From sequence record QB031382.1: DNA of 64,000 bases; one strand, given 5' to 3'. This DNA comes from a phage. A program made the position numbers and the translations under genes. Positions 54,203 through 64,000 of this stretch are shown here, piece by piece (positions within the stretch are counted from its first letter, which is position 1; the number at the start of each line of letters is the position of its first letter). The notes under the pieces were generated by a model that had not been told where the DNA came from, did no database searches, and saw nothing but the letters and a program-made list of their open reading frames with translations.

Positions 54203-55192
54203 TTATTTAACGTGCTTGAAAATACCAGCCAACTCGGTCATTGTCATGCGGGTGGTCTTCATGAGGTCTGTCATAGCCTTCTCCATAATTGGAGATACTA
54301 CCATAAAGTTACCTTTGGTGAAACCTTTATTCCAGTCGGTAACTAATAGTGGTTTAAGTCCGGACCCGAGACGCTCACCAGTTAAAGCACAACATTTTCG
54401 AATGTATGTGCTCTTAAACTGGCTGAATGACAGATCAACTTTCATACCTGCATCGTAGAACGTCTGGCAATAGAAAGTGTAAGCTTTGGCAATCTCAACA
54501 TCGTCAGGCAGTGCAGGAACCTCTTCTGTAAGCTCTTCTTCGCCCCCTTGAGGCTCTTTTTCCTCTTCGTGGTCTTGTTGTATCATTTCTTCAATCTCTT
54601 CTGTTACAGGCTCGTTTACAATGTCAGAAATGTGCTTGTTGGCTCCACGATTAGCCATGAAGTTTTTAAAATCCTGCATTGGTGACATATCTTCCTCCCA
54701 TTCTTCGTCAAAGAGTGCTAGTTTATCCTCTTCCGTTCCATATTGCAAGATGAAATCTTCAAAAGTGTAATCACCTTTCAATTTCTCCATACGCTCTTCG
54801 CTCAGGTGGAGCATCATCTGCTGGACAATTTTTCGATCAGTTTTGTCTTTAATCAAGATTGCGGTCTTTTTATCTACCAGGCAGTCTTTCAGAGAGTTAC
54901 ACCTCAATCCTACCACACAACAGTTATCAATTGCGTAAGGACCTTCATCATCTATCCGCTCCAGAGATGGGTAGAAAGGATTCCCCAGCCCGTTTTCATC
55001 TGTGTGCATGTCGAAAGGTATAAGGGTATAGTCGCATACCCCCTCTCCTAAAAGTTTTTTACCAAATAGGAGGTATTCTTCCCATGACAGGTTGAACTCT
55101 ATATCTCGTTTCCGTGCATTATTTTGTTTGCGTCTGTATTTTTTGAGCAGGCGCTCTAACTCTTCTGGTGTATAATATTTTTCAAGATTCAT
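54203..55192 (-). CDS. Early protein with degenerate HNH_3-like segment and acidic linker
   Basis: ATG 55192 chosen because a promoter (TTGACA-17-TAAGAT) sits inside the TTG-initiated extension to 55258. LERIDDEGPYAIDNCCVVGLRCNSLK resembles an HNH_3 core lacking the catalytic His. Confidence 0.4.
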   Translation of the reverse strand: MNLEKYYTPEELERLLKKYRRKQNNARKRDIEFNLSWEEYLLFGKKLLGEGVCDYTLIPFDMHTDENGLGNPFYPSLERIDDEGPYAIDNCCVVGLRCNSLKDCLVDKKTAILIKDKTDRKIVQQMMLHLSEERMEKLKGDYTFEDFILQYGTEEDKLALFDEEWEEDMSPMQDFKNFMANRGANKHISDIVNEPVTEEIEEMIQQDHEEEKEPQGGEEELTEEVPALPDDVEIAKAYTFYCQTFYDAGMKVDLSFSQFKSTYIRKCCALTGERLGSGLKPLLVTDWNKGFTKGNFMVVSPIMEKAMTDLMKTTRMTMTELAGIFKHVK

Positions 55193-55223
55193 GAGTTGTC
55201 TCTTGTGCTCTGTAGGTGGAGAA

Positions 55224-55252
55224 ATCTTATCAAGTGCCTGGGAATATGTCAA
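55224..55252 (-). promoter_or_regulatory. Leftward sigma70-like promoter
   Basis: On the minus strand: TTGACA, 17-nt spacer, TAAGAT. Confidence 0.5.
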
Positions 55253-55265
55253 CCTCAAAAACGTG

Positions 55266-55294
55266 TTGACTTTACTCTAAATCCACGATATAGT
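55266..55294 (+). promoter_or_regulatory. Rightward sigma70-like promoter
   Basis: TTGACT, 17-nt spacer, TATAGT; divergent from the leftward promoter. Confidence 0.5.
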
Positions 55295-57562: not shown

Positions 57563-57832
57563 ATGTTATACCAGCAGTACGAACTTCGTGCAGAAAAAGA
57601 ATTAAATTTTGACAAAGATATTCACAGATATTATTATGGGAAAGTTAGAGGACAAGCAAGAAAGTGTACTCCAACACTCTTTCATGCCAGCAGACGACTA
57701 GCTCCAGAAGAGGCAACAGCAGAAAGGGTTGCATATGGCTGGAGAGTTGCGTATGATATTGACAGATCCGATGTGATGTCTGTTTTGGAAAACTTTGAAA
57801 ACACTTACACACAAGTAGAGGACTTTTACTAA
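57563..57832 (+). CDS. Hypothetical protein
   Basis: 89 aa; RBS GGAG. Confidence 0.45.
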   Translation: MLYQQYELRAEKELNFDKDIHRYYYGKVRGQARKCTPTLFHASRRLAPEEATAERVAYGWRVAYDIDRSDVMSVLENFENTYTQVEDFY

Positions 57833-59016
57833 TGTCAAGAAACGTATTCGAAAGTGGTCAAATCACTGTCCGCGAGTTGCCAGCTATTATTCAATTTGCC
57901 CAGCGTCATAACCGATCTGTCCTGATTTTAGGACCGATGGGTGTGGGGAAGAGCCAGGTGATGAAGCAGATTGCTGATAATATGTTCGGTGAGCGAGATG
58001 ACAACCTGGTTGACGTGCGGCTGTCAGATAAAGATCCTGCTGACTTATCTGGACTACCTATCCCTGTAGAGGCAGATGGAACTACACGCACAGTGTTTGC
58101 AATTCCAGAATTTTGGCCTGCAGACTCGGACTGGAGCGGAATTATCTTTCTGGATGAGCTTACTCATGCAGATAACTACCTGCAGAAGGTTGCAATGCAA
58201 ATTATGCTCGACCACAAGTGCGGCACCTATGCATTTCCTAAGGGCTCTGTTTTTGTAGCTGCAGGTAACCGTGCTACAGATGGTGCTGTTCTTTCGGCGC
58301 TCGAAGCTCCTCTGGCTAACCGCTTTATCATTGTAGAAGTTACAAGCAATGCAGAGGTATTTATTGAGGACTACGCATTCCTTAATGGTGTACATTCCTC
58401 TGTAATTGGATATCTGAAAAGAGTTCCATCAGCTATCGATAATTATGAGGCTATGGCTGAGATTAATTGTCCGTCTTTTGCCACACCGCGATCTTGGGTT
58501 GCTGCATCTGACATCCTGCACGATTTTGACAGCGGTATTATTTCTGACGCTATGGCTCGTGTTCTTCTGCAAGGTGCTATTGGTCACACTGCAGCGGTAG
58601 AAATCTGGACCTACCACACCAAGAAACGAAACTTGCCAGAAATCGGTCGGATTATGGCAGGGGGTTGCAAAGAGTATGTAGGTCCTAAGCAGCCAGACAT
58701 CTTGTGGATTCTGGGGTCTGAAGGTTGTATCGCTATTCGTAACATGATGGAAAATGCAAGTATCTCCGACGAAGATCTTGTCAGCTGTGTGGCAAACTTC
58801 CTTGATTTCCTTTGGGAAAATTTCAAAGATGAAAACCGAGACTTTGTATTCTCAGTCTTTATGGCGATGATGAAACCCAACGCCCTAGGGAATGCCTTAC
58901 TTATTGGTAAAGGCCGGGACAAGATCGTTGCTCAGCTGATCAAAGCATACCCAAACCTGATGAAGATTGTAAAAGAGTTTGGTGAAGAGTTTAGCGCCAT
59001 TTTAGCTAAAGCTTGA
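57832..59016 (+). CDS. AAA+ ATPase, MoxR/CobS-like (AAA_5-type)
   Basis: Walker A GPMGVGKS, Walker B IIFLDELTHA, then VFVAAGNRATDG. Single-module length typical of MoxR-type ATPases. Confidence 0.6.
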   Translation: MSRNVFESGQITVRELPAIIQFAQRHNRSVLILGPMGVGKSQVMKQIADNMFGERDDNLVDVRLSDKDPADLSGLPIPVEADGTTRTVFAIPEFWPADSDWSGIIFLDELTHADNYLQKVAMQIMLDHKCGTYAFPKGSVFVAAGNRATDGAVLSALEAPLANRFIIVEVTSNAEVFIEDYAFLNGVHSSVIGYLKRVPSAIDNYEAMAEINCPSFATPRSWVAASDILHDFDSGIISDAMARVLLQGAIGHTAAVEIWTYHTKKRNLPEIGRIMAGGCKEYVGPKQPDILWILGSEGCIAIRNMMENASISDEDLVSCVANFLDFLWENFKDENRDFVFSVFMAMMKPNALGNALLIGKGRDKIVAQLIKAYPNLMKIVKEFGEEFSAILAKA

Positions 59017-59025
59017 GGAGGTTGT

Positions 59026-59406
59026 ATGGCTAAAGTAGGTAAGCGGGGAAACTACCTGGTGGTATTGACAGAGGAGCCGGAGAAGGAGTACGAATGCAGC
59101 TCCACCTGCGTGATCGATATCCGAGAAAAAGATGTAGATGAAATCTGGTTTAAAATACTGGACGCTTGCGACAGTAGTGATTATTTCTTCATCTATGTCA
59201 ACGATAAAGCTGGGTTCTTCCATGACGATGGAGAGTTACCGTATGAAATCTATGAACTTGTAGAGGCTTGCCATCGTGGAGATGCGGAGTTGTTTGGTCT
59301 ACGGCTGAAAAGCGGTAAATTTTTCTACCAAGATGAGTGCATGAATCTTCACAACTTCGTAGAGGGGACTTGCAATGATGGAGAGATTTTGGCACACTAC
59401 GACTAA
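59026..59406 (+). CDS. Hypothetical acidic protein
   Basis: 126 aa; RBS GAGGAGG. Confidence 0.45.
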   Translation: MAKVGKRGNYLVVLTEEPEKEYECSSTCVIDIREKDVDEIWFKILDACDSSDYFFIYVNDKAGFFHDDGELPYEIYELVEACHRGDAELFGLRLKSGKFFYQDECMNLHNFVEGTCNDGEILAHYD

Positions 59407-59418
59407 TTTCTAAGACCA

Positions 59419-59446
59419 CCCCCGCTTCGGCGGGGATTTTCTATTT
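59419..59446 (+). terminator. Intrinsic terminator
   Basis: CCCCGC / TTCG / GCGGGG followed by ATTTTCTATTT. Confidence 0.55.
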
Positions 59447-59455
59447 GGAGTTATT

Positions 59456-59956
59456 GTGAAAATTAAGATCTTTGCTATTATTTTGAGCGCATTTTTATCG
59501 CTGCCTGTTGTTGCAGCACCAAAACAAAAAGTATATCACACCTGCAAGCCATCGGATACTAAGGAAAACATTCTAGCATGTAATATCTACAGGGAGGCTA
59601 GAGGGGATGGCACGATGGGTATGCTGGCATCAGGGTTTGCCACACTAAACAGGAAATCTCACCCCAAATACCCGGACACCATAAGAAAGATTGTCTACCA
59701 ACCTAACCAGTTTTCGTGGACAAACCACGGCAAAACTTTTAAGGTGACAGAAAAAGATTCATGGGATCACGCTAAAAGTCTTGCAAAGATGCTTCTAAAG
59801 GTCTATAATAACAACCATGTTGCATACATGGCTATGGATATAACAGGTGGAGCAACACACTATCATACAACAAAAGTACGACCGAAATGGGCAAAAAAGA
59901 TGCAGAGGACAGCTCAATTCGGGAGTCATATCTACTACAAGGAGCGCAATAAATGA
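59456..59956 (+). CDS. Secreted cell-wall hydrolase (SleB/CwlJ Hydrolase_2-like), candidate endolysin
   Basis: GTG start after GGAG. N-terminal signal-peptide-like MKIKIFAIILSAFLSLPVVAAP. Domain motifs NIYREARGDG ... GGATHYHT ... RPKWA. Confidence 0.6.
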   Translation: MKIKIFAIILSAFLSLPVVAAPKQKVYHTCKPSDTKENILACNIYREARGDGTMGMLASGFATLNRKSHPKYPDTIRKIVYQPNQFSWTNHGKTFKVTEKDSWDHAKSLAKMLLKVYNNNHVAYMAMDITGGATHYHTTKVRPKWAKKMQRTAQFGSHIYYKERNK

Positions 59957-61935
59957 TTGTAAACAGTAATGAAACTAAAGCAGTGCTAACTGGGAATTTG
60001 GAGGTAACAAGGGGATCAATTTCTCTGAACAAAGAAACTTTTGGGTTAATCATTAAAGGGATTTATGAAGATAAGGTGCTGGCAAGCTGCCGTGAACCAA
60101 TCTTCAATGCTGTGGACTCTCATGTTGAGTCTGGACGTGGTGATGTTCCGATCATCATTCACTCCCCTACAGATCTTGAACCATACTTCTTTGTGCAGGA
60201 CGTTGGCCTCGGTATGTCAGAAGAGATGGTCCGCAACACTTTCATGAACCTCGGCGAGTCAACCAAGCGCGACAGCAACGATCTGGTAGGCAATAAAGGT
60301 GTTGGTTCAAAGGCCCCGTTCAGCATGGTGGACACTTTCGATGTAATCAGTGTGCACAATGGTGTGGAAAGCACATACCTATTGTTCTTGGACCAGGGTA
60401 TCCCAAATGTCACCAAGATCCGTGAGCGGAAGACTGAAGAGCACAATGGAGTAAAAGTTCAGTTTCATGTTAAGAAAGAGCATGTTCTGAAATATCGCAC
60501 CGCTATTGCATCATGTCTGCGCTATGCAAAATTTCCGTTCACTGTCACCGATCCGATGACGAGCAAGATGCTGGAGGGAGACAAAGTAGAGGCGCAGTAT
60601 TATTATGAAAAAGATGGTTGGAAGATGACCATCCTGAAGGGCTATACCAGCTCTGACGAGAGTCGTGTGGTAATGGGTCACCAACCTTACCGTTCTAAGT
60701 TCCTGGAAACACTAACAGATTATCCTGCAATTTGTGTAGAGATCCCTATCGGAGATTGCAATATTAACCCAGGGCGTGAATGGACCATAGAAGGTCACGA
60801 CGATGGTGGATTCCAAGAGCGTTTGGAAGCTTTTGTCAAAGAAGGCATTCGCCTTCGTGGAGCAGAAGTTGTTGCAGAACTGGAGACAGCAAAAACATCC
60901 TCAGAAGCACGCGAGATGATGAAGAACAGTGGAGTGTTCGGGCACATCTTCGGTAAGAATTTTATGTATAACCGTTGGGAAGAAACAGGACTAGGGAATT
61001 TGGGGGACTGCGAGATCTTCGCGGGTGGCTTAAATAAAGGCCGCATAGGCTACGCTTGTTACGGAAAGGTAGAATTCTTACGAGGAGTCTATTTAGTATT
61101 TAACGACGGAGACGGTAAATATAACCGAAATAAGTGTAACTACTTAAGCGAGATCACCGGACGCAACGTTTTCTATTGCCGGAACACGGATCTGGTAAAA
61201 GAGTTTAAAGAGGCGGCACACCATCCGTTTTTTGCAGATACGGTCAAATTGTTATCAGAGCTTCCTCGCCGACCTGTGAAGAAAGGTGAAACCAAAACTC
61301 GTTACGAGCCAGGCTATTGGGTTAAAAAACTTGAGAAGGATGGTTACTTCCGTCGTGAGCGTATTACTAAGGCAGAGTTCAGGAAGATTAAGCACTGCAT
61401 TCCTTATGAGGGTGATATCCAACGTGGAAGTTGTTGGCTGGGACAGCTGAGTAACATCTACCAGCAAAATTATGACCGTGTGCGTGCGGCACTCCAGATT
61501 CCTGAAGGGGAAGATCTGTACCTAGTATCAGAATCTCGTCTGCTTTGGACTGATCCTGATTGCCAGTATGTTACAGAGAAGAATGTGGAACATTTGTTGA
61601 AAGAGGACGCCTGGAAATTCTTACTGACTCGCGCAGCAAATGAAACTTCATATGACAGCCTGTATAGACAATTAGGGAAAATTATTCCCATGCAAGATTT
61701 TGGAAATTATCGGCCACATTTCCACAAGTGGGAAGGTAACACCGCGTGGAAGCACAGTGAGCTAAATCATCGTGCCAAAATCTTAATCGCCAACCGAGTT
61801 AAATGCGGGAAGGCCTATATTGCAAGATTGGAAAAGAAATACCCACTTTTGAAGCATGTAGGCTTGAAATATTGGGACACTCCTGCTATGATTGAATACC
61901 GTGAACTGATCGATACAAAGAATAACATCAAATAA
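59953..61935 (+). CDS. rIIA: rIIA-like protein with N-terminal GHKL ATPase fold
   Basis: GHKL motifs in order: EPIFNAVDSH, VQDVGLGMSEEMV, GNKGVGSKAPF. Closely parallels the T4 rIIA N-terminus as recalled. Confidence 0.6.
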   Translation: MIVNSNETKAVLTGNLEVTRGSISLNKETFGLIIKGIYEDKVLASCREPIFNAVDSHVESGRGDVPIIIHSPTDLEPYFFVQDVGLGMSEEMVRNTFMNLGESTKRDSNDLVGNKGVGSKAPFSMVDTFDVISVHNGVESTYLLFLDQGIPNVTKIRERKTEEHNGVKVQFHVKKEHVLKYRTAIASCLRYAKFPFTVTDPMTSKMLEGDKVEAQYYYEKDGWKMTILKGYTSSDESRVVMGHQPYRSKFLETLTDYPAICVEIPIGDCNINPGREWTIEGHDDGGFQERLEAFVKEGIRLRGAEVVAELETAKTSSEAREMMKNSGVFGHIFGKNFMYNRWEETGLGNLGDCEIFAGGLNKGRIGYACYGKVEFLRGVYLVFNDGDGKYNRNKCNYLSEITGRNVFYCRNTDLVKEFKEAAHHPFFADTVKLLSELPRRPVKKGETKTRYEPGYWVKKLEKDGYFRRERITKAEFRKIKHCIPYEGDIQRGSCWLGQLSNIYQQNYDRVRAALQIPEGEDLYLVSESRLLWTDPDCQYVTEKNVEHLLKEDAWKFLLTRAANETSYDSLYRQLGKIIPMQDFGNYRPHFHKWEGNTAWKHSELNHRAKILIANRVKCGKAYIARLEKKYPLLKHVGLKYWDTPAMIEYRELIDTKNNIK

Positions 61936-61945
61936 GGAGACCAAG

Positions 61946-63151
61946 ATGATTTTCATCTACGAACATTTCAAAACCCGTAAAGAAGCAAGAGACCGCCGTG
62001 CAGAACTTGAGAAGAAGGGTTTCATATGTGCCATTGAGAAAGGCGACACAACCTGGACACTGGCAGTTGGTGCCCCAGAGTTGTTCGATCCTGACCGTGA
62101 CAGCGTCTGCTACACCCGTGAAGATTTTGAAACCCGCGAAGAGGCCCGTTTATTTCGATACGGTCTGGAAGATAACGGTAAGTACGCCATGATCTTAGAT
62201 TTAGGCGAAGGGTCCGTTAAACGTTGGGGCGTGGTATACCCACTGTGTGTTGTTCATGGTGTGGGGTTCACTGGGGTAGCAATCAAGTCAGAAGAACCTT
62301 TAGTAGAAGTCAAAGATCCGGTGCTGGAGGTGGTGAGCAGTGTATCTCAGCAACAGACTCGAAGTATTGAGCCTTTGGTAGTTATTTGTGGGGAACTCCT
62401 CCAGATCACCTGCAACGAAGGCATTTTTGAAATTCGCCGCAGTGAAAGTGAGGAAGTTTACCAGAAAGTCTTCGACCATATCTCTGCCCAGAAATATGAC
62501 GAGGCAATTGGTGAAATCCTTGTCTGGTTGGAACGCAAGAATGAGTTCACTACACTTGCAGACAACCTGATCATGAAAGATGGTAAGCTCTACTACTACG
62601 GTGTAGAGATGCGATCCACCATTGCAAAGAAAATTGAGAAAGATTATGCAGACGGAACACTAGATGACCGCTATGTGAAATTCCTAGTTCGCCTGCTACG
62701 CAATCCTTCTGCAAAATCTGTAAACATGCTCTACGATTTTATGCAGGCCAACGATATCCAGGTTGCAGAAGATGGTCGAATCATTTGCTACAAAGGGGTT
62801 CAGTTTAACGGCAGCAAGTGGGTGGATTGGCACAGTGGTAAAGTTCCACAATACCAGGGTGCTTTTGTATCCATGCCTCGTAACTTTGTAGAGGATGATC
62901 CTGAAGCTGCTTGCTCCTATGGCTTACACTGCGCCAGCAAAGAGTATGCAAAGAGCTACGGCACTGTAATGACTGTTATGGTTGATCCTGCAGATGTGGT
63001 CAGTGTGCCATACCAACACAATAGCGCTAAGTGCCGTGCATGCCGCTATGAGATTGTGGTAGCTCCGGAAGCACGCAAAGACGGAGACCCTATTGAATAT
63101 GTAGTTGATCGTGACGGTAACACTATCGACATTCTTTACGAGGAGGCGTAA
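61946..63151 (+). CDS. rIIB: rIIB-like protein
   Basis: C-terminal NPSAKSVNMLYDFMQANDIQVAEDGRIICYKGV ... GLHCASKEYAKSYG ... VDPADVVSVPYQHNSAKCRACRYEIV parallels T4 rIIB as recalled; adjacent to rIIA-like gene. Confidence 0.6.
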   Translation: MIFIYEHFKTRKEARDRRAELEKKGFICAIEKGDTTWTLAVGAPELFDPDRDSVCYTREDFETREEARLFRYGLEDNGKYAMILDLGEGSVKRWGVVYPLCVVHGVGFTGVAIKSEEPLVEVKDPVLEVVSSVSQQQTRSIEPLVVICGELLQITCNEGIFEIRRSESEEVYQKVFDHISAQKYDEAIGEILVWLERKNEFTTLADNLIMKDGKLYYYGVEMRSTIAKKIEKDYADGTLDDRYVKFLVRLLRNPSAKSVNMLYDFMQANDIQVAEDGRIICYKGVQFNGSKWVDWHSGKVPQYQGAFVSMPRNFVEDDPEAACSYGLHCASKEYAKSYGTVMTVMVDPADVVSVPYQHNSAKCRACRYEIVVAPEARKDGDPIEYVVDRDGNTIDILYEEA

Positions 63152-64000
63152 TGGAAAAAGGGCAGTATGATGTAGGCACAGATGCTGCCCTCGTTGCAAT
63201 CATGAGCGGTGAGAATGTCTTCGTTTCAGGACCTGCAGGTTGTGGGAAGACGTATCTCATCAACATGATCCAGTCAATGTATGGAGACTCTTGCATAACG
63301 GTTGCCCCGACAGGGGTAGCCGCTTTAAACGTTAATGGAGCAACAGCACACCGAACCTTCGATCTTGCAGCAGGTGTGAGCATGGAGTCAGACTGGACCG
63401 CAATAAGGGCAAAAACAGCAAAGCCTTTGAAAAGCAAGGCATTTACCATCCTAATTATCGATGAAATCTCTATGATCCGTGCTGATAAGTTTATAGAGAT
63501 GGATAGGAAACTCCGCTTCCTTCGAAAAAATGACAAACCTTTCGGAGACATACAGGTCATATTGTTTGGCGATTTTTACCAGGCACCTCCTGTTGTCTCT
63601 TCTATGGAGAAGGAAGCCTACTTCAACTTCTACCATACGGACCTGTGTTGCTATACCGAATCTTGGAAAGAGCTTGACCTCCACAACATAGCCCTAGTAG
63701 ATCAGTTCCGACAGGAGTCTATTCGATTTGCCACAATGCTCAACTGTGTTCGTGAGGGTCGTCGCATAAAAGAGGTTGTAGCAGAACTTAATGCTCGCTG
63801 TTACAAAGGCGGTGTACCAACAGACGCTCTCACAATTTGCGCCACCAACAAACAAGCGGAGGAAGTGAACAGAAGGTTCTATGATGCCATCAACGCCCCA
63901 GAGAAGGTATACACTGGTGAAATGAAGGGTAAGTTTCCCTCCACCCTGCCAGTTGAGCAGGAGATGAAGTTGAAAATTGGCATGAAAGTTATGATAACCG
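63151..64000 (+). CDS. Pif1/RecD/Dda-like SF1 helicase (3' end outside window)
   Basis: ATG overlaps upstream stop (TAATG). Walker A GPAGCGKT, APTGVAA, IIDEISM, ILFGDFYQAPPV. ORF runs to window end. Confidence 0.65.
   Translation, partial: MEKGQYDVGTDAALVAIMSGENVFVSGPAGCGKTYLINMIQSMYGDSCITVAPTGVAALNVNGATAHRTFDLAAGVSMESDWTAIRAKTAKPLKSKAFTILIIDEISMIRADKFIEMDRKLRFLRKNDKPFGDIQVILFGDFYQAPPVVSSMEKEAYFNFYHTDLCCYTESWKELDLHNIALVDQFRQESIRFATMLNCVREGRRIKEVVAELNARCYKGGVPTDALTICATNKQAEEVNRRFYDAINAPEKVYTGEMKGKFPSTLPVEQEMKLKIGMKVMIT

What the first reader, a model, noticed from the sequence alone, without database searches (positions are those of the whole stretch)
59456..63151. Secreted SleB-type hydrolase directly upstream of rIIA/rIIB-like genes
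A signal-peptide-bearing SleB/CwlJ-type hydrolase (GTG start) is translationally coupled to an rIIA-like gene, followed by rIIB-like and a helicase. rII proteins are membrane-associated and linked to lysis timing and exclusion. A secreted lysin co-transcribed with them suggests a coupled lysis-control module rather than a classical holin-endolysin cassette.
Basis: partly seen in the sequence, partly recalled or inferred. Interest (0 to 1): 0.45.

Follow-up and report, generated by a model that had tools for sequence, protein, structure and literature searches.

The report
Secreted wall hydrolase beside rII genes
This stretch of an rV5-like E. coli phage does encode an exported cell-wall-cutting enzyme directly in front of rIIA, rIIB and a helicase. 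The layout has been published since 2013, and related phages show the enzyme and the rII genes occurring independently, so they are probably neighbours rather than one lysis-control device.

Summary
The window comes from a Vequintavirus (rV5-like) phage, 95-97% identical to many GenBank genomes. It encodes, in order:
- a 166-aa single-domain Hydrolase_2 (SleB/CwlJ catalytic fold) protein with a GTG start and a Sec-type signal peptide, 59456-59956;
- rIIA, 59953-61935, overlapping the hydrolase stop by 4 nt (ATGA);
- rIIB, 61946-63151;
- a RecD/PIF1-like helicase from 63151.

The rII calls pass comparison with T4.

None of this is new. The rV5 paper (2013) lists gene 1 as rIIA and gene 2 as cell wall hydrolase, and a 2020 paper on phage CB7 reports the signal peptide and toxicity in E. 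coli.

The "coupled lysis-control module" reading is not supported. Among relatives I found:
- hydrolase directly joined to rII;
- hydrolase, then a small two-transmembrane protein, then rII;
- hydrolase and the small membrane protein without rII;
- rII without the hydrolase, in otherwise identical synteny;
- the hydrolase alone inside replication modules of unrelated phages.

The recurrent partner is the small holin-like membrane protein, which is absent here.

The gene follows an intrinsic terminator, uses a weak start codon and has no late-promoter motif. A λ R-type endolysin lies about 65 kb away in a close relative. The most likely reading is a low-dose, Sec-exported accessory wall hydrolase. 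Interest is low.

The parts
57832..59016 (+). MoxR-type AAA ATPase (rV5 gene 4), upstream context of the same + strand unit
   Evidence: phrog_1297 ATPase E 2e-110; rV5 Table S3
59026..59406 (+). 126-aa acidic protein of unknown function (rV5 gene 3). It is not conserved next to the hydrolase outside this clade.
   Evidence: phrog_12370 E 9e-89. No similarity to the upstream neighbours of the hydrolase in other genera. 56% identical homologue in L019.
59420..59446 (+). Intrinsic-terminator-like hairpin CCCCGC-TTCG-GCGGGG followed by ATTTTCTATTT, ending just before the hydrolase ribosome-binding site
   Evidence: Identical to rV5 terminator t003, ΔG -16.0 kcal/mol (PMC3606486 Table S4). Analogous hairpins sit upstream of the hydrolase in Seunavirus, CR3 and L020.
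59447..59450 (+). Shine-Dalgarno GGAG, five bases before the GTG start
   Evidence: Sequence read directly
59456..59956 (+). Exported single-domain Hydrolase_2 (SleB/CwlJ catalytic fold) peptidoglycan hydrolase, 166 aa, GTG start (rV5 gene 2)
   Evidence: rV5 Table S3
59456..59515 (+). Predicted Sec-type signal peptide (residues 1-20, cleavage VVA|AP)
   Evidence: Rule-based anatomy, conserved in seven clades. A signal peptide was reported for the CB7 homologue (PMC7344957).
59594..59596 (+). Codon GAG for Glu47, aligned with the Glu of the SleB YGESRGE motif (putative catalytic residue)
   Evidence: Alignment to 4f55. Nearly invariant in alignment A1.
59781..59809 (+). σ70-like promoter match TTGCAA-17-TATAAT inside the hydrolase gene, 144 bases before the rIIA ATG. 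Candidate only.
   Evidence: Invariant in four relatives, but these are about 97% identical and so uninformative.
59953..61935 (+). rIIA homologue, 660 aa, with an N-terminal GHKL ATPase-like domain (rV5 gene 1)
61946..63151 (+). rIIB homologue, 401 aa. The C-terminal 230 aa are T4-rIIB-like. The N-terminal 100 aa form two β-α-β-β repeats.
63151..64000 (+). 5' part of a RecD/PIF1-like DNA helicase (runs off the window)
   Evidence: Translation with Walker A motif GPAGCGKT. Annotation of relatives. Pfam PIF1/AAA_30 on homologues.

Best explanation
This is the known gene 2 - gene 1 - gene 238 - gene 237 segment of rV5-like phages.

What the hydrolase most likely does:
- It is made with a cleavable Sec signal peptide and exported to the periplasm independently of any holin.
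- There it most likely cuts glycan strands as a SleB/CwlJ-type lytic transglycosylase.
- Its dose is kept low, because the gene sits directly behind an intrinsic terminator and so depends on read-through, and because it starts with GTG.
- It most likely acts as an accessory wall-weakening or lysis enzyme alongside the phage's separate cytoplasmic λ R-type endolysin.

Why it sits next to rIIA: the adjacency is inherited gene order, not a functional unit. In related genera the hydrolase is followed by a small two-transmembrane, holin-like protein. That gene is missing in Vequintavirus, which brings the hydrolase stop onto the rIIA start. rIIA and rIIB then act as in other phages, as membrane-associated protectors with a poorly understood mechanism.

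Shown here: gene identities, fold, signal-peptide anatomy, terminator, start codons and the comparative gene orders.

Inferred: export, enzymatic activity, low dosage, timing and the accessory role.
For: Identity and prior knowledge:
- The window is 95-97% identical to many Vequintavirus genomes that carry the same annotation.
- rV5 Table S3 lists gene 1 rIIA, gene 2 cell wall hydrolase, gene 3 and gene 4 MoxR, and Table S4 lists terminator t003 with the identical sequence.
- The CB7 paper reports SleB-like homologues in all Vequintavirinae genera, a signal peptide, toxicity on expression in E. coli, and a two-TMD holin candidate downstream.

Fold.

Export signal conserved in seven clades.

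Weak start codons:
- GTG in Vequintavirus.
- TTG in Seunavirus, L020, Justusliebigvirus and Phapecoctavirus.
- Probably TTG in L023.

Upstream signals:
- A terminator-like hairpin lies directly upstream in Vequintavirus, Seunavirus, CR3 and L020.
- The late-promoter-like motif TGGTAAAATA is enriched in the structural part of the window (18 matches against 5.75 expected). No match lies upstream of the hydrolase or rIIA starts. The one match in this locus, at 61193, is inside the rIIA coding sequence and has one mismatch.

Small two-TMD ORF immediately after the hydrolase:
- SPLA5a, 57 aa.
- Iguana/L020, 51 aa.
- L021, 76 aa.
- CR3 gp086, 62 aa, ATGA overlap.
- SSBI34, 76 aa, ATGA overlap.

Independence of rII and hydrolase: L019 has rII without the hydrolase. 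CR3 and SSBI34 have the hydrolase without rII.

Separate endolysin: MaxTheCat bas57_0207 is 156 aa, λ R-type (1am7, E 3.5e-56), without a signal peptide. rV5 gp89 and the active LysECP26 are its counterparts.

Recurrent location among replication genes in unrelated phages.
Against: - There is no experimental evidence for export, activity, timing or phenotype of this protein in any rV5-like phage. The toxicity report is 'data not shown' and concerns a 46%-identical homologue.
- Terminator efficiency is unknown, and every downstream replication gene also lies behind it, so read-through may be substantial.
- The direct hydrolase-rIIA overlap persists in a second lineage that is only 53% (hydrolase) and 61% (rIIA) identical (L023). 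The junction is therefore stable, not a recent accident.
- The hydrolase is conserved across all genera of the subfamily while the 'canonical' endolysin type differs between genera (PMC3352856). This could mean it is more than an accessory.
Confidence: 0.6

Rival explanations
1. First reader's model. The exported hydrolase and rIIA/rIIB form one functional lysis-timing or exclusion module. rII proteins at the inner membrane restrain or time the periplasmic hydrolase, for example by preserving membrane energisation. In Vequintavirus they take the place of the small membrane protein that partners the hydrolase in sister genera.
For: - ATGA overlap and no terminator between the genes.
- The same direct junction occurs in a lineage about 53-61% identical.
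- rIIA occupies exactly the slot held by the two-TMD gene in CR3 and SSBI34, which also have ATGA overlaps.
- In Seunavirus, Iguana and L021 the hydrolase-TM pair lies directly upstream of rIIA.
Against: - All combinations occur. The L019 clade has rII without the hydrolase in otherwise identical synteny. CR3 and SSBI34 have the hydrolase without rII.
- Both families are far more widespread than the adjacency.
- Overlapping junctions are routine in this genome.
- No transmembrane segment is predicted in rIIA, and rIIB has only a marginal one.
- From general knowledge, T4 rII phenotypes are host- and prophage-dependent and are not direct lysis control.
Confidence: 0.12
2. The hydrolase is the phage's main, ancestral endolysin. 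It is a Sec-exported (or SAR-like) enzyme that accumulates in the periplasm and is activated when the membrane is depolarised. The λ R-type lysozyme would be a later, redundant acquisition.
For: - The hydrolase is conserved in all Vequintavirinae genera, while the other endolysin candidates differ: λ R-type in rV5, PG_binding+GH19 in PVP-SE1, and an M15 peptidase in CB7 (PMC3352856 abstract).
- It is paired with a small two-TMD, pinholin-like gene in five lineages.
- The homologue is toxic on expression in E. coli.
Against: - The partner membrane gene is missing in this phage.
- The gene lies in the replication module behind a terminator, with a weak start and no late-promoter motif.
- The L019 clade lacks the hydrolase at this position in the 11 kb read.
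- The signal peptide of this protein is strongly hydrophobic, with only 33% Gly/Ala/Ser/Thr and a good cleavage site, which is unlike SAR domains.
- LysECP26 is an active muralytic enzyme.
Confidence: 0.1
3. The hydrolase has a non-lytic role during infection. It could remodel or partly degrade peptidoglycan from early or middle times. Possible purposes are releasing wall precursors, relaxing the sacculus of the swelling infected cell, or altering the envelope against superinfection.
For: - The gene recurs among replication and nucleotide-metabolism genes in Vequintavirinae, Stephanstirmvirinae, T5-like phages, PAK_P3 and Cr30.
- Stephanstirmvirinae have a σ70-type promoter directly upstream.
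- The PAK_P3 authors proposed the homologue gp151 as an auxiliary gene that explains accumulation of cell-wall precursors (PMC4933390). The PAK_P3 and PAK_P4 endolysin candidates are other genes.
Against: - No direct data exist for any member.
- An active exported muralytic enzyme produced early should be dangerous to the infected cell.
- Association with a holin-like gene in several lineages points towards lysis.
Confidence: 0.15

Closest known systems
Escherichia phage rV5 genes 2, 1, 238 and 237 (Kropinski et al. 2013, PMC3606486) and more than 100 sequenced Vequintavirus genomes
   Same: - Same genes with the same sizes (166, 660 and 401 aa).
- Same 4-nt overlap.
- Same terminator t003.
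- 95-97% nucleotide identity.
   Different: Nothing of substance. This window is another isolate of the same genus.
Certrevirus CB7_83 / CR3_087 SleB-like protein with its downstream two-TMD 'class II holin' candidate (Buttimer et al. 2020, PMC7344957)
   Same: - Homologous hydrolase (46% identity).
- Signal peptide.
- Same position upstream of the helicase.
- Stop codon overlapped by the next gene.
   Different: In Certrevirus the next gene is a 62-aa membrane protein and there are no rII genes. In this window the membrane protein is absent and rIIA takes the overlapping position.
Bacillus SleB and CwlJ spore-cortex lytic enzymes (PDB 4f55, 4fet)
   Same: - Same catalytic fold, with a conserved Glu in the Y-x-E-x-R-G motif.
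- SleB is also exported by a signal peptide.
- SleB is encoded just upstream of a membrane-anchored regulator, YpeB.
   Different: - Only 19-24% identity.
- No N-terminal peptidoglycan-binding domain, so the architecture is CwlJ-like.
- Fails the SleB equivalog cut-off.
- No YpeB or PepSY partner.
- The substrate cannot be muramic-δ-lactam cortex.
Exported endolysins: SAR endolysins (P1 Lyz, phage 21 R) with pinholins, and signal-peptide endolysins such as Lys44 of Oenococcus phage fOg44 (from general knowledge)
   Same: - Holin-independent Sec export of a muralytic enzyme.
- Sister genera pair the hydrolase with a small two-TMD protein, as in SAR/pinholin cassettes.
   Different: - Different catalytic family.
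- The N-terminal segment here looks like a cleavable signal peptide rather than a releasable anchor.
- No partner membrane gene in this phage.
- Located in the replication module rather than a lysis cassette.
T4 rIIA and rIIB
   Same: - Same PHROG families.
- GHKL-type N-terminal domain in rIIA.
- 37% identity over the C-terminal 204 aa of rIIB.
- rIIA-rIIB gene order.
   Different: - rIIA similarity by BLASTP is confined to the first 198 aa.
- This rIIB has a different N-terminal 100 aa with two β-α-β-β repeats.
- In T4 no wall hydrolase lies next to rII.
PAK_P3 gp151 and T5.083-type Hydrolase_2 genes of other virulent Gram-negative phages
   Same: - Homologous single-domain hydrolases with N-terminal signal-like segments.
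- Embedded among replication genes.
- Distinct from the recognised endolysin.
   Different: No rII neighbours. Sequence identity is 33-40%.

Membership tests
Pfam Hydrolase_2 (SleB/CwlJ catalytic domain, PF07486) | Profile match above the curated gathering score | tested here: met
   70.4 bits against a cut-off of 27, E 2.1e-19, covering profile positions 2-100 of 100
Pfam Hydrolase_2 (SleB/CwlJ catalytic domain, PF07486) | Three-dimensional fold of the SleB catalytic domain | tested here: met
   Model pLDDT 88.6. The only significant PDB matches are 4f55 and 4fet (probability 1.0, TM 0.72-0.79 normalised to target).
Pfam Hydrolase_2 (SleB/CwlJ catalytic domain, PF07486) | Conserved catalytic glutamate | tested here: met
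   Glu47 aligns with the Glu of YGESRGE in 4f55 and is nearly invariant among homologues. That this Glu is the catalytic one rests on my recollection of Li et al. 2012 and Jing et al. 2012. PMC12331253 confirms only that a catalytic Glu is essential.
Pfam Hydrolase_2 (SleB/CwlJ catalytic domain, PF07486) | Muralytic (lytic transglycosylase) activity | not testable with these tools
   Needs a zymogram or muropeptide analysis
SleB proper (NCBIfam TIGR02869 equivalog) | Full-length match with the N-terminal peptidoglycan-binding domain, above the equivalog cut-off | tested here: not met
   48.3 bits against a cut-off of 236.5. Only profile positions 83-201 are matched.
SleB proper (NCBIfam TIGR02869 equivalog) | Operon partner YpeB (PepSY domains) | tested here: not met
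   The downstream gene is rIIA. No PepSY hit among the neighbours.
T4-type rIIA | Full-length profile homology to the family that contains T4 rIIA, with an N-terminal GHKL ATPase-like domain | tested here: met
   phrog_612 over residues 1-658, E 5.5e-125. T4 rIIA is in the same PHROG at E 9e-250. HATPase_c_3 at 35.1 bits against 25. BLASTP against T4, E 3e-22.
T4-type rIIB | Homology to the conserved C-terminal part of T4 rIIB | tested here: met
   37% identity over 204 aa, E 4e-40. phrog_609 E 1.5e-61. Homologues carry PF26926 Phage_T4_rIIB.
T4-type rIIA/rIIB | Function: protection against RexAB-type exclusion, or a rapid-lysis phenotype of mutants | not testable with these tools
   Needs genetics
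Sec signal-peptide (secretory) endolysin | N-terminal n-h-c signal peptide with a (-3,-1) cleavage site | tested here: met
   Rule-based only. There are two positive charges, an 18-aa uncharged stretch with mean Kyte-Doolittle 2.29, and the site VVA|AP. The same anatomy appears in seven clades. SignalP was not available.
SAR endolysin with pinholin | Weakly hydrophobic, Gly/Ala/Ser/Thr-rich, uncleaved N-terminal anchor | tested here: inconclusive
   33% G/A/S/T here, with a good cleavage site, which argues against a SAR domain. Homologues reach 53-65%. Cleavage versus release cannot be decided in silico.
SAR endolysin with pinholin | Adjacent small two-TMD holin gene | tested here: not met
   None lies between the hydrolase and rIIA because the genes overlap. 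No homologue of the sister-genus small ORFs was found in the window or in the MaxTheCat segments held as L001 and L002. The partner is present in five related lineages.
Classical holin-endolysin-spanin lysis cassette | Clustered holin, endolysin and spanin genes under late control | tested here: not met
   - Neighbours are MoxR, rIIA, rIIB and the helicase.
- No late-promoter-like motif lies upstream.
- Per PMC7344957, the spanins of rV5 lie next to the large terminase.
- Per PMC3606486, the rV5 lysin is gp89, and only one holin candidate, gp129, was found by a transmembrane scan.

The most novel reading that the evidence does not exclude
In Vequintavirus and its L023-type relatives, rIIA/rIIB may have functionally taken over the slot of the small two-transmembrane partner of the exported hydrolase. 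The famous but mechanistically obscure rII proteins would then control when a periplasmic wall hydrolase becomes active, for instance by holding membrane energisation. This would give rII a concrete biochemical target and define a holin-independent lysis or abortive-infection-evasion circuit.
Probability: 0.08. Interest if true: 0.65.

Novelty: already known. Interest (0 to 1): 0.18.

Why it matters
As found, it matters little. The arrangement has been annotated since the rV5 genome paper, and the signal peptide of the hydrolase family has already been reported.

Two modest points come out of the comparison:
- A Sec-exported Hydrolase_2 enzyme is a recurrent but experimentally uncharacterised accessory gene in the replication modules of many virulent Gram-negative phages. 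It is often mis-annotated as 'the endolysin', or truncated by gene callers because of its GTG or TTG start.
- In Vequintavirinae its conserved partner is a small, often unannotated two-TMD protein rather than rII.

Anyone choosing endolysins from these phages, or studying their lysis, should know that the two enzymes are distinct. If the minority reading were true, rII would acquire a testable molecular role.

Tried and rejected
1. SAR-endolysin reading. I compared N-terminal composition across clades. This phage's segment is strongly hydrophobic with a canonical cleavage site, so I favour a cleavable signal peptide. This remains unresolved without experiments.

2. The upstream 126-aa acidic protein as a conserved partner or immunity protein of the hydrolase. 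Rejected, because the upstream neighbours are unrelated between genera. The rV5 table entry that links gene 3 to T5.083 looks like a row shift, since T5.083 is the hydrolase homologue.

3. A relocated copy of the small two-TMD gene in Vequintavirus. tblastn of four such proteins against the window and MaxTheCat segments L001 and L002 (about 78 kb) gave nothing better than E 0.29. The proteins are short, so sensitivity is poor, and part of the genome was not searched.

4. A SPOR (peptidoglycan-binding) domain at the N-terminus of rIIB as a wall link.
- Pfam SPOR scores 18.1 bits, below the cut-off of 21.
- NCBIfam gives nothing.
- The model shows two β-α-β-β units at pLDDT 60-80.
- Foldseek gives only a half-domain hint to CwlC 1x60 at E 1.3.
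- The result is inconclusive, and a protein without an export signal would not reach the wall.

5. An rIIA-specific promoter inside the hydrolase gene (59781-59809). It is a consensus match only, and the available relatives are too similar to test conservation.

6. Transcriptome data for an rV5-like phage. None was found in the paper library.

7. MaxTheCat 'putative glycosidase' as the canonical lysin. It has no Pfam match. The real one is bas57_0207.

Full report
**What the window is.** The 4.1-kb stretch 59026-63151 matches 121 phage records by megablast, 85 of them over at least 80% of its length and at 90-97% identity. Nearly all are Escherichia phages of the genus Vequintavirus (rV5-like myoviruses). 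They annotate the same five genes as hypothetical protein, cell wall hydrolase/SleB, rIIA, rIIB and DNA helicase. The annotated locus of phage MaxTheCat shows the same order in the same orientation.

**Checking the observation: the hydrolase.**
- The ORF list gives 59456-59956 (GTG, 166 aa), 59953-61935 (660 aa) and 61946-63151 (401 aa) on the + strand.
- The 166-aa protein matches Pfam Hydrolase_2 at 70.4 bits (cut-off 27) and PHROG 938 'endolysin'.
- It matches the solved SleB catalytic domains 4f55 and 4fet by sequence.
- Its AlphaFold model (pLDDT 88.6) has those structures as its only significant PDB neighbours.
- Glu47 (codon 59594-59596) aligns with the Glu of the SleB YGESRGE motif and is nearly invariant among homologues.
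- It is not a SleB orthologue. It scores 48 bits against an equivalog cut-off of 236.5 and lacks the N-terminal binding domain, so the architecture is CwlJ-like.

**Checking the observation: start codon and export signal.**
- The GTG is the first start after the upstream stop. It is preceded by GGAG at a five-base spacing.
- The next ATG would remove the catalytic Glu.
- The N-terminus has the n-h-c layout of a Sec signal peptide with a VVA|AP site.
- Homologues from Seunavirus, SSBI34, Certrevirus, Justusliebigvirus, Phapecoctavirus and T5-like phages all keep this anatomy although the sequence drifts.

**Checking the observation: rIIA, rIIB and the helicase.**
- rIIA aligns over its full length with phrog_612, the family of T4 rIIA. 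It has the GHKL-type N-terminal domain and gives E 3e-22 against T4 rIIA.
- rIIB is 37% identical to T4 rIIB over 204 aa.
- The helicase begins at 63151.

**It is already described.**
- Supplementary Table S3 of the rV5 genome paper lists gene 1 rIIA (660 aa), gene 2 cell wall hydrolase (166 aa, Hydrolase_2, overlapping gene 1), gene 3 and gene 4 MoxR.
- Table S4 lists terminator t003 with exactly the hairpin found at 59420-59446.
- The same paper names gp89 as the 'obvious lysin' and reports no recognisable holin, with gp129 picked out by a transmembrane scan as the single candidate.
- The CB7 paper states that SleB-like homologues occur in all Vequintavirinae genera, that the protein has a signal peptide, and that it was toxic on expression in E. 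coli. It also says that a two-TMD class II holin candidate lies downstream in Certrevirus, which lacks rIIA/rIIB, and that the spanins of rV5 sit next to the large terminase rather than in a lysis cassette.
- The rV5-type endolysin has been purified and shown to be active (LysECP26).
- In MaxTheCat that gene (bas57_0207) is a 156-aa λ R-type lysozyme (1am7, E 3.5e-56) with no signal peptide, about 65 kb from the rII locus.

**Local expression signals.**
- The hydrolase ribosome-binding site follows the T-tract of terminator t003 directly.
- No acceptable σ70 promoter lies between the terminator and the gene. The unit's listed promoter is P010, about 4 kb upstream (55266-55294).
- The hydrolase, and all the replication genes after it, therefore depend on read-through or on unrecognised promoters.
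- A consensus match (TTGCAA-17-TATAAT, 59781-59809) inside the hydrolase gene could serve rIIA. It is untested, and the available relatives are too similar to judge.
- The late-promoter-like motif proposed for rV5 (TGGTAAAATA) is enriched in the structural half of the window (18 matches against 5.75 expected). No match lies upstream of the hydrolase or rIIA starts. The only match in this locus is one with a mismatch inside rIIA.
- Terminator-like hairpins also sit just upstream of the hydrolase in Seunavirus, CR3 and an Iguana-like contig. In Stephanstirmvirinae a hairpin is followed by a good σ70 promoter.
- The start codon is GTG or TTG in at least five lineages.
- A weak start behind a terminator fits a toxic exported enzyme kept at low dose. 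This is inference.

**Comparative gene order: the main test of the interpretation.**

| Arrangement | Where seen |
|---|---|
| Hydrolase overlapping rIIA, then rIIB, helicase | Vequintavirus; metagenomic contig L023 (hydrolase 53%, rIIA 61% identical) |
| Hydrolase, small two-TMD ORF, rIIA, rIIB, helicase | Seunavirus SPLA5a (57-aa ORF, unannotated); Klebsiella phage Iguana and L020 (51 aa); L021/L022 (76 aa) |
| Hydrolase, small two-TMD ORF (ATGA overlap), small ORF, helicase; no rII | Certrevirus CR3; SSBI34 |
| MoxR, gp3, hairpin, rIIA, rIIB, helicase; no hydrolase in the 11 kb read | L019 clade (72%, 56%, 53% and 49% identical to the window proteins) |
| Hydrolase among replication genes; no rII beside it | Justusliebigvirus, Phapecoctavirus, T5-like DT57C (T5.083), PAK_P3, Cr30 |

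- Hydrolase homologues occur in 1337 phage records and rIIA homologues in 2645. Only 185 records carry a match covering at least 80% of this rIIA.
- The hydrolase and rII therefore assort independently.
- The gene that most consistently follows the hydrolase within the subfamily is a small holin-like membrane protein.
- The ATGA overlap is one of 11 junctions in the window that share 1 or 4 bases.

**How it most likely works.**
- The protein is exported by Sec and cleaved after Ala20.
- It acts on peptidoglycan in the periplasm as a SleB/CwlJ-type glycan-strand-cleaving enzyme, at a low dose.
- I rank an accessory lysis or wall-weakening role first.
- A non-lytic remodelling role is a real alternative. 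The PAK_P3 authors proposed something like it for the homologue gp151, while treating another gene as the endolysin.
- Being the principal endolysin is a third possibility. It is suggested by conservation of the hydrolase across genera whose other lysins differ.
- The rII proteins are most simply read as in other phages. The BASEL paper calls the rIIAB locus 'long-known yet poorly understood'.
- A functional hydrolase-rII circuit is not excluded. In its favour, the direct junction is stable in two diverged lineages, and rIIA sits exactly where the small membrane gene sits elsewhere. I give it roughly one chance in ten.

**Verdict.** The annotation-level parts of the interpretation are right, but the 'coupled lysis-control module' is not supported. 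The feature is already known, and interest is low.

Noticed in passing
L006 5036-5209 (Salmonella phage SPLA5a); L013 3519-3749 (Salmonella phage SSBI34): Unannotated small ORFs of 57 and 76 aa, each with two hydrophobic segments and a charged C-terminus, lie immediately after the SleB-like gene. Homologous or analogous ORFs are annotated only as 'hypothetical' or 'membrane protein' in Klebsiella phage Iguana (L014 3536-3691) and CR3 (gp086). They look like holin or pinholin candidates paired with the exported hydrolase.
   Followed up: partly
window 61946-62245 (rIIB residues 1-100): The N-terminus of this rIIB consists of two conserved β-α-β-β repeats with the motif [FY]-x-[ST]-R-x-x-A-R ... 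W, which T4 rIIB does not share. It gives a sub-threshold Pfam SPOR match (18.1 bits against 21) and a weak half-domain Foldseek hint to the CwlC SPOR domain (1x60, E 1.3). The protein has no export signal, so a wall-binding role is doubtful.
   Followed up: partly
L006 4501, L014 about 3001, L008 4501, L009 4483, L020 2313 (hydrolase starts): Several GenBank records call the hydrolase from an internal ATG (for example SPLA5a and Iguana, 127 aa). This drops the signal peptide, because the real start is TTG or GTG. Others label it 'endolysin' although a different endolysin exists.
   Followed up: yes
window 1-48000, + strand (e.g. 8184, 13347, 27496, 33313): The rV5 'late promoter' motif TGGTAAAATA is strongly enriched (18 matches with at most one mismatch against 5.75 expected, 16 of them on the + strand). 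The exact copies lie just upstream of structural genes.
   Followed up: partly
window 55224-55294: Back-to-back σ70-like promoters (TTGACA-17-TAAGAT on the - strand, TTGACT-17-TATAGT on the + strand) lie between the Srd-like anti-sigma gene (54203-55258, - strand) and the first gene of the + strand unit (55335). They correspond to rV5 P010 and P011.
   Followed up: partly
GenBank records MG0656xx found with window 59026-63151: Sixteen to twenty-three records named 'Campylobacter phage' (host C. jejuni) are 94-99% identical to this E. coli rV5-like sequence. This suggests mis-assigned hosts or contaminating coliphages in that submission series.
   Followed up: no
PMC3606486 Table S3, rows for genes 2 and 3 (window 59026-59956): The rV5 table attributes the T5.083 homology (E 6e-22) to gene 3. 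The DT57C annotation, together with my tblastn match of the window hydrolase to that gene, shows that T5.083 is the Hydrolase_2 homologue. This looks like a row shift in the table.
   Followed up: partly
L020 1017-2261: An IS605 OrfB/TnpB (Cas12f-like) gene is inserted just upstream of the hydrolase in a 146-kb Iguana-like phage contig.
   Followed up: no
L019 2926-2986: A metagenomic sister clade (contigs of about 140 kb) keeps the hairpin after the gp3 homologue, but rIIA follows it directly. The hydrolase gene is missing from this position.
   Followed up: partly
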